Shown here: piece after piece, positions 2,099 to 5,481 of the stretch | Layout of the letters: every line of letters starts with the position of its first letter | Numbering within the stretch: position 1 is the first letter of the stretch | IMG/VR virus record: IMGVR_UViG_3300045016_000151 | Location: 18,078-82,077 of that record | Source: a virus | Lineage: Duplodnaviria; Heunggongvirae; Uroviricota; Caudoviricetes | Reading direction: 5' to 3' (one strand) | Length of the DNA stretch: 64,000 nt | Program-made: the position numbers and the translations under genes | The notes under the pieces: generated by a model | Databases searched by the model: none | Seen by the model: the letters and a program-made list of their open reading frames with translations, nothing else | Told to the model about the DNA's origin: nothing

Positions 2099-2104
2099 AT
2101 TTTA

Positions 2105-2116
2105 TGGTATAAGAAT
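2105..2116 (+). promoter_or_regulatory. Copy 1 of a recurring extended -10 motif, TGGTATAAGAAT, preceded by a T-run
   Basis: The motif recurs five times in the window: 2105, 6555, 19735, 20404 and 33817. Confidence 0.4.
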
Positions 2117-2360
2117 TGCACTGTACGTAGTTTAATATACATTACGAGAGTCTCAAGTTTAACCCCGCACATCTACTAGGGATACGACTCCCCCGAAAGT
2201 TTTTGCCCTATCGAAAATACAAAAACTGTAAGATTGTGCGGTCCAGAAATCACTTGACTTTACATAAGAAATTATGTATATTTGTAAGTGGGGTCGTTGA
2301 TACAGCGTTATCCCGTTAAGATAAAACCGCTGAATCTCTTATTATCTCACTATTATTTTT

Positions 2361-2433
2361 GGGCCTATAGCGTAATTGGGAACGCAGTAGCTTTGCAAGC
2401 TAAAGACTCGGAGTTCAATTCTCCGTAGGTCCA
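2361..2433 (+). tRNA. tRNA-Ala (anticodon UGC), 73 nt, CCA not encoded
   Basis: Folded by hand: acceptor stem GGGCCTA/TAGGTCC (7 bp with one G-U); D stem GCGT/ACGC; anticodon stem GTAGC/GCTAA; loop TTTGCAA; T arm CGGAG-TTCAATT-CTCCG. Confidence 0.75.
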
Positions 2434-2981
2434 CTAAGCTGAGTCGGACGCAAGATCGTTATCTTATCTTACCTTACAAAGACAAAAAACACGGTCTTCA
2501 ATCATTTATTCAGCTTCCAAGTTTAGGGGTCGAATCAATCATCGTTATCTTTCGCATAAGAACCCGAGCACAAAGTCCTGTGCTCAAGTCGATAATATCG
2601 ACAGGTTAGGCAACCGGTGGTTAAACATTATCCCTTTAATTTAAAACAATCAACACTGAACCGTGGTAGAATAATGGGTAGTCTGCCCATAATACGTAGT
2701 GGCTGCGAAGATCAGCTGCTGGCAGTACAGTATACATGCGTAAAGGTAAAACGGCCAGAGTCGTACAACTCTGAGTCTCGTAAGAATCGGACAAATCGCT
2801 TATAGACAATCCTGAGGACTGTATCCGATTGGAGGTAGATTCCTCCCAGAATTCCACGCAAGTGGAACCATAATATATTAGGCCAAATATATGGTCTGTG
2901 CCTGAATAACGTAGGTATTTCCAAGGCTTATAGGTAATCAGTAGCCCTGTCGATTCATTGTTGATCTTATAAGGAGTCGTT

Positions 2982-3161
2982 ATGAACACACTTTCCAAAC
3001 AAGATATATTTGAAAGATCCGCCGCATGCTTATCGCATAATGTGGACTTCATTACATTACAGCCTTTTAAAGAAGATATGACAACACATGCTTATTCCTT
3101 AGAGGATACTGTAGTCTTTACACAATTTGTACCAATTAATCCAAATGCACATAAGGCGTAA
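2982..3161 (+). CDS. Small ORF of 59 aa (MNTLSKQDIFERSAACLSHNVDF...); may or may not be expressed
   Basis: Good RBS (AAGGAG) 6 nt upstream of the ATG. It is below the ORF-track size cutoff and its 3' end overlaps the tRNA-like element. Confidence 0.3.
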   Translation: MNTLSKQDIFERSAACLSHNVDFITLQPFKEDMTTHAYSLEDTVVFTQFVPINPNAHKA

Positions 3162-3211
3162 CCATAACATTGGTATCGCGGAAAATGTAGGTTCGAATCC
3201 TACCATTTGGG
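3141..3211 (+). ncRNA. tRNA-like element with a perfect 7-bp acceptor stem (CCAAATG/CATTTGG) and a canonical T arm (GTAGG-TTCGAAT-CCTAC), but no canonical D or anticodon arm. Instead a single long arm (GCG-ACCAT-loop-TTGGT-CGC). Candidate tRNA-like module of a Y RNA, or an aberrant tRNA
   Basis: Manual folding. The GGTTCGAATCC T-loop and the 7/7 acceptor complementarity at the correct spacing are unlikely to arise by chance. Confidence 0.45.
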
Positions 3212-3399
3212 CTATCGGGTCGAATCGGCTTGGTTATCAATCTAAGAAAAAAGAACGCGGTAGAGTCCGCAACTAGCCTAGGAATGTAAAAGGCAATCTC
3301 CGAGCTCAATATTTATCCGGTAATTTTTAGAAAAGAATATAATATCCTTGTTTTGCTTAAATGCAAGTAAGTGATACTTTAAAGAAATTAGAGTTTTTA

Positions 3400-3600
3400 A
3401 GATATTAAAATAGTTGTACGTGACAGTGGTTGCTTACTTGCGACTGCTGAAGTCGGTAGTGACGTTCCGCGCTAGGCCGCAAAGCGACCGATGCTTCACT
3501 GGTGGAGGTGCCATTCTTAGCTACTGGGAATACACAGTAGTATGCGTTGCTATTCCGCCAAAAATAGAATAGCATTAGTTTTTCTTGAGGCCGAACAAAG
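3400..3600. ncRNA. Candidate structured ncRNA, locally richer in GC, immediately upstream of Ro60. Contains a bulged helix (GAAG-T-CGGT / ACCG-AUG-CUUC) and nested GC hairpins. Possible Y-RNA-like RNA
   Basis: No convincing ORF (the only track ORF is a 68-aa one on the minus strand). Compositional contrast with the flanks. Manual helix search. Confidence 0.25.
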
Positions 3601-3819
3601 TTGGTTATCATACTTGAATAAAATCAATGGTAATACCATAGCATTCGCGAATATGTGAGTAGCGAGTGCGTGTTACTTATAACATAAATAATGTCGCCGG
3701 TTAGCGTAGAAACCGATGCCTTGTTATTGGAGCTGCAATCTAATAATGCTGCTTGTCAAAAGCATCCGACTTTAAACATTGCCTCATTTTTTTACATCCT
3801 AATAGAAAGGGAGTCGAAC

Positions 3820-5481
3820 ATGAACAAGAAAACACCATACTCGCAAACTGCGAGACAATTAAATCCAAATACACCCGTACCACAATCACAACCAATTCCC
3901 GGCAAGACTATGGTACAAAACGCCGCCGGTGGGTACGTGTTTGAACTGGATAAGTGGCAAAGACTAGACAGATTTTTAATACTTGGTAGCGAAAGCGGTA
4001 ATTATTACATTGGCCCGCTAAAGATGACGCAAGATAACGCCAAGAACGTTGCCGCATGTATTAAAGAAGACGGCAAGCGTGTCGTAGATGTTACAGTGCA
4101 AATTTCCGATTCTGGAAGAGCCGCAAAGAACGATCCAGCCTTATTTGTTTTGGCGATGTGTGCTGCGGCGGATGATATTGATACGCGTCAATATGCTTTG
4201 CAATCATTACAAAAAGTAGCTCGCACCGGAACTTATTTATTCCACTTTGTTGAATACATTGACAAAATGCGCGGCTGGAGTCGTGGATTACGTACTGCCA
4301 TCGGTAACTGGTATACCAATCGCAAGATTGAGTCACTAGCAGTACAGCTGGCAAAATATCAATCTAGGGACGGCTGGTCGCATCGCGATGTGTTGCGTTT
4401 GGCGCATCCACACCCTGAGACCGAAGCACAGACTTTGGCATTTAAATGGGCTGTCGACCGTATCAAACAGCAAAAAGATAAGGATTCAAAGTATTTTAAC
4501 ATGGATGCTTATGAGCATGATATGTCCAAGTTAAAAGAATTGTTACCACTTATCGGCGCTTACGAAGAAGTGAAAGCTACCGACAATAAGAAACGTATTG
4601 TCGAGCTTGTACAAGAATTTGAACTTCCGTTGGAATTAGTTCCTACGGAAAAGCGCACAAAACAGGTTTATGATGTGATTATACCTAATTTAGGTATTAC
4701 TGCATTGATCAGGCAGTTACCAACGCTAACAAATGCCGGAGTTCTTGGTGAAGTAGGATGTGACAATACAAAGTATATAGTGGAGCAATTCACTAATCCT
4801 GAAGTATTGAAGAAAGGTCGTGTCCATCCAATACAAGTTTTAATAGCACAGGCAACATACGGTGGAGGAAAAAGTTTCCGTGGGACATCAACATGGAGCC
4901 CAGTTCGAAAGTTAGTGGATGCATTAGAAGATTGCTTTTATTTATCTTTTGGTGCCGTTGAACCGACGGGAAAACGTATTTTAATAGGATTGGACATTTC
5001 AGGCTCAATGAGTATGGGGTCAGTAATTGGTTCTGAACAATTACGCCCATGCCAAGTTACCGCAGCTATGTCGATGGTAACCATGCGCACTGAAAAGGAT
5101 TATGTTATAAAGGGGTTCTCGACATCGTTTTGTGATCTCGGTATCTCTCCAAAACAAGATCTAGCCACAGTAATGGCTAAAGTGGCCAACCAAAACTATG
5201 GTGGTACTGACTGTTCGTTACCGATGATATACGCCGAACAGCACAAAATACCTATCGATGCTTTTGTGGTCTATACGGATAATGAAACTTGGGCTGGGCA
5301 CGTACATCCAATCCAGGCACTGAAATCTTATCAGCAAAAGATGGGTATTCCTGCACGATTAATCAGTGTTGCCACATCGGCTACAAACGGAAGCATCGCA
5401 GACGATTCTGCTTACACCATGAACGTCGTAGGATTCGATGCATCTGCACCGAAGATTATAAGTGACTTTATTAGAGGTTAA
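3820..5481 (+). CDS. rsr: Ro60/Rsr orthologue: TROVE domain plus a vWA domain with a MIDAS motif (LIGLDISGSMS)
   Basis: The N-terminal region (GGYVFELDKWQRLDRFLILGSESGNYYIG...EDGKRVVDVTVQISDSGRAAKNDPALFVLAMCAA) aligns with human Ro60 ([29 protein letters not shown]...[34 protein letters not shown]). RBS AAAGGGAG precedes the ATG at 3820. The ORF-track start at 3691 lacks an RBS. Confidence 0.85.
   Translation: MNKKTPYSQTARQLNPNTPVPQSQPIPGKTMVQNAAGGYVFELDKWQRLDRFLILGSESGNYYIGPLKMTQDNAKNVAACIKEDGKRVVDVTVQISDSGRAAKNDPALFVLAMCAAADDIDTRQYALQSLQKVARTGTYLFHFVEYIDKMRGWSRGLRTAIGNWYTNRKIESLAVQLAKYQSRDGWSHRDVLRLAHPHPETEAQTLAFKWAVDRIKQQKDKDSKYFNMDAYEHDMSKLKELLPLIGAYEEVKATDNKKRIVELVQEFELPLELVPTEKRTKQVYDVIIPNLGITALIRQLPTLTNAGVLGEVGCDNTKYIVEQFTNPEVLKKGRVHPIQVLIAQATYGGGKSFRGTSTWSPVRKLVDALEDCFYLSFGAVEPTGKRILIGLDISGSMSMGSVIGSEQLRPCQVTAAMSMVTMRTEKDYVIKGFSTSFCDLGISPKQDLATVMAKVANQNYGGTDCSLPMIYAEQHKIPIDAFVVYTDNETWAGHVHPIQALKSYQQKMGIPARLISVATSATNGSIADDSAYTMNVVGFDASAPKIISDFIRG

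What the first reader, a model, noticed from the sequence alone, without database searches (positions are those of the whole stretch)
2100..5481. Phage-encoded Ro60 (Rsr) orthologue with an upstream cluster of tRNA and tRNA-like structured RNAs: a candidate Ro60-Y RNA module
The protein at 3820-5481 has the Ro60 N-terminal TROVE signature and a vWA MIDAS motif. In bacteria, rsr is almost always flanked by one or more Y RNAs, and the YrlA type contains a tRNA-like domain.

Here, the 1.6 kb directly upstream has no credible ORF. It contains a bona fide tRNA-Ala, a tRNA-like element with perfect acceptor and T arms but a non-canonical core, several strong hairpins (2563-2583, 2826-2843) and a GC-enriched structured block (3400-3600). 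The motif GGGGTCG(A/T) recurs three times (about 2293, 2527, 3217) and resembles the UGGUCCGA Ro-binding stem sequence of Y RNAs.
Basis: partly seen in the sequence, partly recalled or inferred. Interest (0 to 1): 0.8.

Follow-up and report, generated by a model that had tools for sequence, protein, structure and literature searches.

The report
Phage Ro60 gene with five Y RNAs
A giant phage carries a Ro60 RNA-binding protein gene preceded by a single-strand cluster of five Y RNAs, a working alanine tRNA, a tRNA-like element and two further structured RNAs; the Ro60/Y RNA pairing is already known in phages, so the case is ordinary in kind but unusually rich in detail.

Summary
Window 3820-5481 encodes a full-length Ro60/Rsr. 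The 1.7 kb upstream is not empty. It holds five Y RNAs on the Ro60 strand: Ya 2286-2352, Yb 2436-2518, Yc 2522-2640, Yd 3212-3324 and Ye 3586-3786.

A covariance model built only from Ro60-adjacent RNAs of other metagenomic loci finds four of them and nothing else in 64 kb. The same model gave 104 of 104 hits on the Ro60 strand in 89 other loci. Ye is supported by compensatory changes in six related phages.

None has the canonical permuted tRNA-like domain of YrlA. Instead, a functional-looking tRNA-Ala and a degenerate tRNA-like element directly abut Y RNAs. This arrangement recurs in relatives and suggests that tRNA-processing enzymes cut the RNAs apart.

"No credible ORF" is wrong: a conserved 59-codon gene lies at 2982-3161. 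Two further structured RNAs sit in the cluster. One, about 310 nt at 2652-2961, has homologues in other phages, Bacteroidales and Saccharibacteria and no Rfam family.

Ro60 with Y RNAs in phages is already published, so this is a new member of a known kind.

The parts
2..778 (+). Context: polynucleotide kinase-phosphatase (PNKP) gene, cut by the window start; an RNA-repair enzyme conserved upstream of the module in relatives
   Evidence: Pfam HAD_PNKP 2.6e-46 and AAA_33; the same gene lies upstream in L091, L092, L093 and L095
2254..2282 (+). Near-consensus sigma-70 promoter (TTGACT-17-TATATT) ending 4 nt before Ya
   Evidence: Promoter scan 10/12; TTGACW-17-TATAYT sits 3-12 nt before a Y RNA stem in 6 of 8 clade loci, once per locus
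2286..2352 (+). Ya: short Y RNA. Stem 1 is AGUGGGGU/AUCUCACU, the 5' motif is GUCG, stem 2 is CAGCG/CGCUG, and the loop starts GUUAUC
   Evidence: R1 28.5 bits, E=1e-5; the MFE fold gives the Y architecture, z=-2.9; in orthologue alignment A5, 10 of 17 pairs are compensatory, with 0/500 shuffles reaching that
2361..2434 (+). tRNA-Ala(UGC) with G3:U70 and no encoded CCA (ends A-CUA); Y RNAs flank it on both sides
   Evidence: ARAGORN; Rfam 65.1 bits; tRNA-Ala(UGC) is interleaved with Y RNAs in L001, L092, L093, L095 and L096
2436..2518 (+). Yb: Y RNA starting 2 nt after the tRNA-Ala call. Stem 1 is AAGCUGAGU/AUUCAGCUU and stem 2 is AAGAUCG/CGGUCUU
   Evidence: R1 21.8 bits, E=8e-4; fold z=-3.8, 0/200 shuffles
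2522..2640 (+). Yc: Y RNA whose inner domain has four hairpins in the V/T/AS/D order of YrlA, but with degenerate T and D loops
   Evidence: R1 18.9 bits, E=5e-3; fold; the L001 and L095 orthologues keep T-loop-like UUCAAUU/UUCGAUC
2652..2961 (+). Region A: a structured RNA of about 310 nt and unknown family. It is not a Y RNA
   Evidence: Homologous to L095, L096 and L097 (phages) and L098-L101 (Bacteroidales, Saccharibacteria); 40 of 68 consensus pairs are compensatory in 7 sequences; 32 of 91 against 2-6 in slid controls; no Rfam family
2982..3161 (+). Small protein gene (59 aa) with RBS GGAGUCGU; its last 21 nt overlap the tRNA-like element
   Evidence: ORF list; BLASTP to L001; alignment with L001, L091 and L092 at 25-30% identity
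3141..3211 (+). tRNA-like element (acceptor stem, long hairpin, T arm; discriminator G then CUA) directly abutting Yd
   Evidence: Rfam tRNA 23.4 bits, below the cut-off of 29; fold z=-2.75; equivalent elements abut a Y RNA in L001, L091, L092 and L093
3212..3324 (+). Yd: Y RNA. Stem 1 is UAUCGGGU/AUCCGGUA, the 5' motif is GUCGAA, and stem 2 is GGCUUGG/CCGAGCU
   Evidence: R1 28.8 bits, E=8e-6; R2 35.6 bits through the end modules only; fold
3497..3588 (+). Region B: a clade-specific RNA motif. It consists of UGGUGGAGGUGC, a hairpin, AUGCG, and a hairpin with conserved loop CGCCAAAAAU followed by a U-run. It lies immediately 5' of Ye
   Evidence: Alignment A4: 9 of 14 pairs compensatory; model R3 also hits the untrained L095 4256-4332 (53 bits) and none of the 88 loci outside the clade
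3586..3786 (+). Ye: long Y RNA of the GCCG/UUGCC type. Stem 1 is UGAGG/CCUCA and stem 2 is AAAGUUGG/CCGACUUU. It has a branched inner domain of about 150 nt and ends 34 nt before the rsr start
   Evidence: The MFE fold closes with exactly these stems, z=-3.1; both stems are kept with compensatory changes in 6 loci; only a partial R1 hit
3820..5481 (+). rsr: Ro60 orthologue, 553 aa, RBS GGAGUCGA at 3810-3817
   Evidence: Pfam; PDB; 358 phage records carry homologues; the 596-aa ORF from 3691 would overlap Ye and is not supported by the homologues
5490..5513 (+). Intrinsic terminator-like hairpin after rsr
   Evidence: Terminator scan

Best explanation
Window 2254-5513 is a phage Ro60 ribonucleoprotein module.

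A host-type sigma-70 promoter at 2254-2282 drives one long + strand transcript. In order it carries Ya, tRNA-Ala, Yb, Yc, the region A RNA, a 59-codon gene, a tRNA-like element, Yd, the region B element, Ye and rsr.

Each Y RNA folds so that its 5' and 3' ends pair in a terminal stem ending GGGU/AUCC (GAGGC/GCCUC in Ye). Next comes an asymmetric internal loop carrying G(U/C)CG(A/N) on the 5' side and (A)ACAUUAU/UUG on the 3' side. A second stem follows, then a loop that begins GUUAUC. This is the conserved Ro60-binding module of Y RNAs from bacteria to humans (shown by sequence, fold, model and covariation).

Inferred: phage Ro60 binds this module. The five different inner domains tether or gate Ro60 towards different partners, most likely host PNPase, as in the D. 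radiodurans, Salmonella and Thermus phage phiLo complexes. Ro60 would then act in RNA surveillance or repair during infection, alongside the nearby PNKP.

Inferred: the Y RNAs are released from the precursor by tRNA-processing enzymes. RNase P would cut at the 5' side, and RNase Z or equivalent at the 3' side, of tRNA-Ala and of the acceptor/T-arm tRNA-like element. These elements abut the Y RNAs with gaps of 0-8 nt.
For: Protein:
- TROVE plus vWA_Ro60, with full-length similarity to solved Ro60 structures.

Independent model:
- R1 was built from 12 Ro60-adjacent RNAs of other loci.
- In the whole window, both strands, it gives only five hits. All are on the + strand at the motif sites, four of them full-length with E from 8e-6 to 5e-3.
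- In 89 other Ro60 loci (702 kb) it gives 104 hits with E<=0.01, all on the Ro60 strand.

Folds and covariation:
- Unconstrained MFE folds of all five give the stem/internal-loop/stem architecture, with z from -1.9 to -3.8.
- Ya family: 85.7% of cells paired, 10 of 17 pairs compensatory, 0/500 shuffles, slid controls at or below 45%.
- Ye: both stems are kept through G-C to C-G and A-U to U-A changes in six loci.

Motif:
- The same 5' motif occurs in the three Y RNAs upstream of Ro in mycobacteriophage Catera. Chen 2014 reported YrlA RNAs in mycobacteriophages (PMC4201824).
- It also occurs in human Y1, as GGCUGGUCCGAAGGUAGUGAGUUAUCUC.

Promoter and processing:
- The promoter is conserved directly 5' of a Y RNA in 6 of 8 clade loci.
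- tRNA-Ala is interleaved with Y RNAs in five relatives, with gaps of 0-7 nt.
- A tRNA 3' end lies 6-11 nt from the Y 5' motif in 7 other loci (6 distinct; L087 and L088 are identical there).
- In the tRNA-like elements only the acceptor stem and T arm are conserved.

Precedent:
- The phiLo phage Ro60 binds two upstream Yrl RNAs and forms a complex with host PNPase (PMC12135203).
- PNKP lies nearby.
Against: - There are no expression data and no direct evidence of binding.
- Ye is only partly found by R1 (E=1.6). It rests on hand analysis and six sequences.
- Yc scores modestly (18.9 bits).
- Ya and Yb lack the CGAA core (they have CGUU and CGGA), and none has the exact GNCGAAN0-1G.
- The 12 training sequences for R1 were picked with a regular expression inspired partly by this window. 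The model is therefore independent in sequence but not in concept. The 104/104 strand result and the Catera and human parallels mitigate this.
- Processing by RNase P/Z is inferred from adjacency only.
- The hairpin in region B may terminate transcription, in which case Ye-rsr would need its own promoter.
- The host is unknown, so use of a sigma-70 promoter is an assumption.
Confidence: 0.8

Rival explanations
1. The repeated G(U/C)CG...GUUAUC elements are DNA-level signals, such as phage promoters, operators or recombination sites. The tRNA, the tRNA-like element and the hairpins would then be an ordinary phage tRNA region that happens to lie next to rsr.
For: The motif is short and repeated. 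Phages often have repeated promoter motifs in intergenic regions. Only one bona fide tRNA is present.
Against: Each motif has a matching 3' strand 60-200 nt downstream that pairs with its own 5' flank. These pairs change in a compensatory way between relatives. A structure-aware model trained elsewhere finds them. Its hits are 104/104 on the Ro60 strand in unrelated loci. The motif matches known Y RNAs.
Confidence: 0.04
2. The Y-like elements act mainly in cis, as leader or attenuator structures or autoregulatory Ro60 binding sites on the rsr and small-ORF mRNA, rather than as free trans-acting Y RNAs.
For: Ye ends 34 nt before the rsr start and follows a terminator-like hairpin. Both protein genes in the cluster have an RBS containing the Y 5' motif: GGAGUCGA at 3810 and GGAGUCGU at 2973. 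The GGAGUCG core is conserved before rsr in all eight clade loci, and a related GGAGGGUCGAAC precedes rsr in the distant L039.
Against: Ya-Yd are separated from rsr by a tRNA, other RNAs and an ORF. A functional tRNA must be excised, which also frees its neighbours. Characterised Y RNAs in bacteria and in phage phiLo are free RNAs (PMC4201824, PMC12135203). Cis and trans roles are not mutually exclusive.
Confidence: 0.1
3. The tRNA-like element plus Yd (3141-3324), and tRNA-Ala plus Yb, remain joined and act as non-permuted equivalents of YrlA. That is, a Y RNA carrying a tRNA-shaped module at its 5' end, rather than tRNA-shaped punctuation that is cut off.
For: Chen 2014 found at least one Y RNA with a tRNA-like domain in each species. 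No canonical domain exists inside any Y RNA here. The tRNA-like-then-Y junction, with 28-32 nt from T loop to Y motif, is conserved in five clade loci.
Against: The cores of the tRNA-like elements evolve freely, and in L093 shrink to an acceptor/T-arm minihelix. That minihelix is what processing enzymes need (established knowledge). tRNA-Ala has the features of a working tRNA and must be released. Yc keeps a degenerate V/T/AS/D layout, and relative L094 has a canonical YrlA.
Confidence: 0.15

Closest known systems
Thermus phage phiLo Ro60 with Yrl1/Yrl2 (PMC12135203)
   Same: A phage-encoded Ro60 with Y RNA-like genes directly upstream on the same strand. The RNAs have a 5'-3' stem flanking an internal loop with a CGAA motif, in a stem-bulge-stem layout.
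   Different: There are five Y RNAs here rather than two. They are interleaved with a tRNA, a tRNA-like element, a small ORF and two other structured RNAs. The genome is a phage of about 215 kb encoding its own RNA polymerase. Nothing has been tested experimentally.
Bacterial and mycobacteriophage YrlA/YrlB (Chen et al. 2014, PMC4201824); Salmonella rsr-yrlBA-rtcBA operon
   Same: The RNAs lie within 4 kb of Ro60 on the same strand, with a GNCGAA-type motif near the 5' end and YUAY (here UUAU in GUUAUC) after it. There is more than one Y RNA per locus, in an RNA-repair gene neighbourhood.
   Different: No Y RNA here has the conserved T-arm/AS/D-arm tRNA mimic that defines YrlA, so they resemble YrlB-type RNAs. 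The tRNA-shaped elements are separate, non-permuted and adjacent.
Human Y1 RNA and vertebrate Y RNAs
   Same: The order of elements is the same: terminal stem, GGUC-CGAAG, second stem, then a loop starting GUUAUC, with ACUUGAC-type 3' strand.
   Different: The vertebrate helix has a bulged C and is transcribed by Pol III as a single gene. Rfam Y_RNA gives no hit here even at E<=10.
tRNA-punctuated RNA processing (mitochondrial transcripts, MALAT1-mascRNA, gammaherpesvirus tRNA-miRNA units; from general knowledge)
   Same: tRNA or tRNA-like structures placed directly next to other RNAs so that RNase P and RNase Z define their ends.
   Different: This has not been shown here. It is inferred from conserved adjacency and from conservation of only the acceptor stem and T arm.

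Membership tests
Ro60/Rsr protein | N-terminal TROVE (HEAT-repeat ring) domain | tested here: met
   PF05731, 3.6e-38, residues 32-344
Ro60/Rsr protein | C-terminal Ro60-type vWA domain | tested here: met
   PF25045, 1.5e-54, residues 386-551, full profile. The DISGS motif is seen in the translation of 4990-5004; the metal-site geometry was not modelled
Ro60/Rsr protein | Full-length similarity to experimentally solved Ro60 | tested here: met
   2NVO 1.4e-119 (residues 12-553); 1YVP 5e-106; human 9NEN 7e-106
Y RNA (bacterial/phage Yrl type) | Encoded close to Ro60 (within 4 kb) on the same strand | tested here: met
   All five lie 34-1534 nt upstream on the + strand
Y RNA (bacterial/phage Yrl type) | 5' and 3' ends pair in a terminal stem, followed by an internal loop and a second stem | tested here: met
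   MFE folds of all five; covariation
Y RNA (bacterial/phage Yrl type) | Conserved CGAA / GNCGAAN0-1G motif in the 5' strand | tested here: inconclusive
   Yc and Yd have GUCGAAUC and Ye has GCCGAACA, so GNCGAA is met but the trailing G is not. Ya has GUCGUUGA and Yb has GUCGGACG. The same variation is common in other Ro60 loci
Y RNA (bacterial/phage Yrl type) | Match to a sequence-plus-structure model of Ro60-adjacent RNAs from other genomes | tested here: met
   R1: Yd 28.8, Ya 28.5, Yb 21.8 and Yc 18.9 bits; Ye partial only
Y RNA (bacterial/phage Yrl type) | Bound by Ro60 | not testable with these tools
   Needs EMSA or RIP
YrlA subfamily | Internal tRNA-like domain: T arm, then acceptor-like stem-loop, then D arm | tested here: not met
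   The R2 model (13 canonical YrlA) aligns window RNAs only through their ends and deletes the T/AS/D part. The only T-loop sequences in 2100-3820 are in tRNA-Ala and the tRNA-like element
Rfam Y_RNA (RF00019) | Score at or above the gathering threshold | tested here: not met
   No hit even at E<=10. The positive control, phage Catera, is also missed, so this says little
tRNA (for element 3141-3211) | Cloverleaf with D arm and 7-nt anticodon loop; Rfam score at or above 29 bits | tested here: not met
   23.4 bits; the D and anticodon parts are skipped in the alignment; ARAGORN is silent; the fold shows a 6-nt loop on an interrupted stem
tRNA-Ala (for 2361-2434) | Cloverleaf, UGC anticodon, G3:U70 identity pair | tested here: met
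   G3:U70 read from the sequence (GGGCCUA...UAGGUCC)

The most novel reading that the evidence does not exclude
The 'intergenic' 1.7 kb is a host-promoter-driven, tRNA-punctuated operon of at least nine RNAs. Its cargo goes beyond Y RNAs.

Region A (2652-2961) belongs to a structured RNA family of about 310 nt. The family is shared by several phages, Bacteroidales (directly upstream of rpmE) and Saccharibacteria, and is absent from Rfam 15. It would be a new widespread RNA class carried by phages next to RNA-repair or translation-rescue genes.

In addition, the phage replaces the internal tRNA mimic of YrlA with separate tRNA-shaped elements ending N-CUA. These would both define Y RNA ends and supply the tRNA-like partner.
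Probability: 0.3. Interest if true: 0.7.

Novelty: new member of a known kind. Interest (0 to 1): 0.45.

Why it matters
Ro60/Y RNA particles are conserved from bacteria to humans, where they are lupus autoantigens, yet their roles are poorly understood. Phage versions are compact natural experiments.

This locus offers five different Y RNAs for one Ro60, so the question of which inner domain recruits which partner becomes directly testable. It gives a clear, testable model for how Y RNA ends are made, through tRNA-type punctuation. It sits next to PNKP, which points to RNA repair or counter-defence during infection.

The work also produced a usable covariance model for the Ro60-binding module, which Rfam lacks for bacteria and phages. 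In passing it exposed a structured RNA family of about 310 nt with no Rfam entry.

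Tried and rejected
1. Rfam 15 on the window, at gathering threshold and at E<=10 on 2050-3850, found only tRNA-Ala and the weak tRNA-like hit. This is not evidence against Y RNAs, because Rfam also finds only tRNAs in phage Catera.
2. blastn of 2050-5550 against 50,697 phage records gave no match.
3. The first scans for close relatives found only L001 at 74% and otherwise relatives at 49% or less. 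Closer relatives came from the protein search plus contig look-ups; two look-ups returned no DNA.
4. A canonical YrlA inside the window was tested with R2 and rejected.
5. My first reading of L001 4262-4300 as an acceptor/T minihelix was revised. R2 aligns it weakly (13.2 bits, E=0.28) as a degenerate T/AS/D module.
6. Extra Y RNAs in regions 2640-2981 and 3325-3585, or downstream of rsr, were not found by R1 with filters off.
7. Region A as a tmRNA-like RNA was rejected. A short resemblance to the E. coli ssrA PK1/resume region (sequence verified) suggested a mini-ORF. The variable loop lengths are 22, 22, 24, 22, 20, 20 and 23 nt, so no reading frame is kept. ARAGORN and the Rfam tmRNA models are silent.
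8. Region A as RNase P, 6S or SRP RNA, or as ROOL or GOLLD: no Rfam hit on the bacterial copies.
9. The minus-strand ORF 2636-3052 (138 aa) has no Pfam or PHROG hit and lies under region A, which varies by compensatory pairs. I treat it as not coding.
10. Region B as a general Ro60-associated RNA was rejected. R3 hits only the eight clade loci.
11. Two review papers on bacterial Y RNAs could not be read because they are not held. Whether tRNA-Y RNA adjacency has been noted in print is therefore unchecked.

Full report
**Observation.** ORF 3820-5481 is a complete Ro60/Rsr. It has Pfam TROVE (3.6e-38) and the Ro60-type vWA domain (1.5e-54). It aligns over its whole length with the solved structures of D. 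radiodurans Rsr (1.4e-119), Xenopus Ro60 and human RO60. Homologues annotated 'Ro-like RNA binding protein' occur in 358 deposited phage genomes, mostly actinophages, at about 40% identity. The longer 596-aa ORF from 3691 (annotated as such in public data) is not supported by the homologues, which start at the 3820 equivalent.

tRNA-Ala(UGC) at 2361-2434 is genuine. The tRNA-like element at 3141-3211 has a 7-bp acceptor stem and a perfect T arm. It fails the tRNA tests (23.4 bits against a cut-off of 29; ARAGORN is silent) and folds with one long interrupted hairpin in place of the D and anticodon arms. 'No credible ORF' is wrong: a 59-codon ORF at 2982-3161 has a strong Shine-Dalgarno sequence and is conserved in three related phages.

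**Why the absence of an Rfam hit means nothing.** Rfam 15 gives no Y RNA hit here even at E<=10. It also finds only tRNAs around the Ro gene of mycobacteriophage Catera, a member of the phage group in which Chen et al. 2014 described YrlA RNAs (PMC4201824).

Reading the Catera sequence upstream of Ro shows three RNAs of the form stem, GCCGA-N7-9-UCGGUUAYC..., stem. One of them contains a T arm, an acceptor-like stem-loop and a D arm. The window contains the same 5' motif, G(U/C)CG-N7-13-GUUAUC, five times on the + strand (2293, 2443, 2529, 3219, 3590). The only other matches, to the looser form of the pattern, are two on the minus strand far away. The GTCG form occurs 4 times against 0.46 expected.

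**Architecture.** Metagenomic Ro60 loci show the full design clearly. L019 has six tandem copies and L039 has six copies mixed with tRNAs. The design is:
- a terminal stem ending GGGU that pairs with AUCC of a 3' motif (A)ACUUAUCC;
- an internal loop with CGAA on the 5' side;
- a second stem;
- a loop beginning GUUAUC.

Human Y1 RNA has the same order of elements: GGCUGGUCCGAAGGUAGUGAGUUAUCUC ... ACUUGACUAGUC.

**Independent test.** I built covariance model R1 from 12 short RNAs of other loci, excluding the window and its relatives.
- On the whole window, both strands, it returns five hits, all on the + strand. Yd 3212-3323 scores 28.8 bits (E=8e-6), Ya 2286-2352 scores 28.5 bits, Yb 2436-2516 scores 21.8 bits and Yc 2522-2638 scores 18.9 bits. 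There is a partial hit in Ye. Switching the filters off adds nothing in 2050-6600.
- On 89 other loci (702 kb, both strands) R1 gives 104 hits at E<=0.01, every one on the Ro60 strand. This validates the model as a detector of Ro60-associated RNAs.
- Unconstrained folding of each candidate reproduces the architecture, with z from -1.9 to -3.8.

One caveat applies. The training set was picked with a pattern I derived from Catera and this window, so the model is independent in sequence but not in concept.

**Relatives and covariation.** A protein search found closer relatives. Their contigs (L001, L091-L096; Ro60 identity 55-74%) are syntenic: PNKP, small genes, a 1.5-3 kb RNA region, rsr, a DUF5906 helicase and a ClpB-like ATPase. 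The contig carrying the identical protein is about 215 kb.

Each relative has 3-7 Y motifs or R1 hits upstream of rsr. In an alignment of ten Ya-type RNAs, 85.7% of cells pair and 10 of 17 pairs show compensatory change. No shuffle out of 500 reaches the observed score, and slid controls pair at 45% or less.

Ye is of the GCCG/UUGCC type. Relative to the GUCG/UUAUCC type, the U-A pair at the inner end of stem 1 has become C-G; this is my reading of the listed sequences. Both Ye stems are kept in six loci through changes such as GAGG/CCUC to GUGG/CCAC and GG/CC to CG/CG. Its MFE fold closes with exactly these stems.

**No canonical YrlA.** Model R2, built from 13 canonical YrlA RNAs including Catera's, has T arm, acceptor-like stem and D arm all covarying. 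It matches the window only through the end modules and deletes the tRNA-like part.

Yc nevertheless has four inner hairpins in the V/T/AS/D order. Its orthologues in L001 and L095 keep T-loop-like sequences, and relative L094 has a canonical YrlA. Yc is therefore probably a YrlA descendant whose tRNA mimicry has decayed.

**tRNA punctuation (inferred).** Ya ends 8 nt before tRNA-Ala. Yb starts 2 nt after the ARAGORN tRNA call. The tRNA-like element abuts Yd with no gap.
- In the relatives, tRNA-Ala(UGC) is interleaved with Y RNAs with gaps of 0-7 nt.
- In 7 other loci (6 distinct; L087 and L088 are identical there), a tRNA 3' end lies 6-11 nt from the Y motif.
- tRNA-like elements precede a Y RNA at a fixed distance (28-32 nt from T loop to motif) in five clade loci. 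Only their acceptor stem and T arm are conserved. The L001 element has a tetraloop in place of an anticodon loop, and the L093 element is a bare minihelix.
- The acceptor/T-arm minihelix is what RNase P, RNase Z and the CCA-adding enzyme recognise (established knowledge).
- tRNA and tRNA-like elements of the clade end N-CUA rather than N-CCA.

A near-consensus promoter, TTGACW-17-TATAYT, sits 3-12 nt before a Y RNA stem in 6 of 8 loci, once per locus. Ya probably carries the primary 5' end.

**Other RNAs in the cluster.**

Region B (3497-3588) consists of a conserved UGGUGGAGGUGC, a hairpin, AUGCG, and a hairpin with the conserved loop CGCCAAAAAU followed by a U-run. Nine of 14 pairs are compensatory in seven loci. 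Model R3 also finds the untrained L095 copy and nothing in the 88 loci outside the clade. Its role is unknown. It may be a terminator or attenuator in front of Ye-rsr.

Region A (about 2652-2961) is a structured RNA of about 310 nt.
- It aligns with L095 and L096.
- The exact pattern CTCGTAAGAANNNGACAAATCG recovers one more phage contig and four bacterial contigs: Alistipes, two Bacteroidales MAGs and a Saccharibacteria MAG. All are true homologues.
- In seven sequences, 40 of 68 consensus pairs show compensatory change. In the three phage copies, 32 of 91 do, against 2-6 in slid controls.
- No Rfam family matches the bacterial copies.
- In Bacteroidales it lies 25 nt upstream of rpmE. In phage L097 it follows an RF-1-domain gene.
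- A tmRNA-like reading was tested and rejected.

**Comparison and novelty.** Phage Ro60 with adjacent Y RNAs is established. [quoted passage not shown] Thermus phage phiLo's Ro60 binds two upstream Yrl RNAs and forms a complex with host PNPase. TROVE proteins in jumbo-phage RNA-repair contexts have been noted (PMC7824862).

This locus is therefore a new member of a known kind. Its distinctive points are:
- five Y RNAs;
- no canonical tRNA mimic;
- conserved tRNA and tRNA-like punctuation;
- two unassigned structured RNAs.

**Verdict.** Confidence that these are Y RNAs partnered with the phage Ro60 is about 0.8. Confidence in processing by tRNA enzymes is about 0.5, and in a PNPase tether about 0.4.

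Noticed in passing
window 2652-2961 (+); L095 3920-4245; L096 3758-4085; L097 1335-1650; L098 2840-3170 (-); L099 3144-3474; L101 3445-3775: A structured RNA family of about 310 nt with no Rfam 15 match. It is shared by four phage contigs, Alistipes and Bacteroidales (25 nt upstream of rpmE) and a Saccharibacteria MAG. In 7 sequences, 40 of 68 consensus pairs are compensatory. Its identity is unknown.
   Followed up: partly
window 3497-3588 (+) and the seven clade loci: A clade-specific RNA motif: UGGUGGAGGUGC, then a hairpin, AUGCG, and a hairpin with conserved loop CGCCAAAAAU. It always lies just 5' of a Y RNA. GGUG could pair with the CGCC of the loop, which would make a possible pseudoknot or attenuator.
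   Followed up: partly
window 30770-33250 (+): An 826-aa homologue of the eukaryotic major vault protein. It has Pfam MVP_shoulder (9e-27) and a vault repeat, and matches MVP structures at 6e-14 over residues 319-786. It sits in the same genome as a TROVE protein. There is no PHROG family. The only phage matches are three uncultured huge-phage records of 462-735 kb, at about 42% identity.
   Followed up: partly
window 20977-23396 (+): A bpMoxR-type AAA+ ATPase (3.5e-46), of the kind found in MoxR-vWA-beta-propeller systems. It is followed by an unassigned 425-aa ORF.
   Followed up: no
window 26947-27963 (+): A reverse transcriptase (RVT_1, 2.2e-20). It could belong to a diversity-generating retroelement or another retroelement. 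Template and variable repeats were not searched.
   Followed up: no
window 3810-3817 and 2973-2980: Both protein genes inside the RNA cluster have an RBS, GGAGUCG(A/U), that contains the Y RNA 5' motif. GGAGUCG precedes rsr in all eight clade loci, and GGAGGGUCGAAC precedes it in the distant L039. GGAGTCGW occurs 5 times in the window against 1 expected. This may reflect autoregulation by Ro60.
   Followed up: partly
window 2433-2436 and 3211-3214; clade loci: The tRNA and tRNA-like elements of this phage clade end with discriminator plus CUA, not CCA, immediately before the next RNA. L001 is the exception, with CCA.
   Followed up: no
window 2-778 (+); L093 1-607: RNA-repair neighbourhood. 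PNKP (HAD_PNKP 2.6e-46) lies 3 kb upstream of rsr in the window and its relatives. An RlaP nucleotidyltransferase lies further upstream in L093.
   Followed up: partly
L019 1819-2454 and whole locus; L039 4491-5732; L016 2583-3028: Many metagenomic Ro60 loci carry arrays of 4-7 tandem Y RNAs. L019 embeds six Y RNAs and rsr in a block of 32 tRNA genes. In the sequences listed, the GUCG...UUAUCC and GCCG...UUG(C/U/A)CC types covary (U-A against C-G).
   Followed up: partly
window 13602-19682 (-), 43746-58556 (-): A fused RNA polymerase beta/beta'-like protein of 2026 aa and a 4936-aa ORF mark this as a jumbo phage with its own transcription machinery. The RNA cluster nevertheless has a host-type promoter.
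   Followed up: no
window 3691-3819: Public annotation gives Ro60 as 596 aa, starting at 3691. That extension would run through Ye, and the homologues start at 3820.
   Followed up: yes
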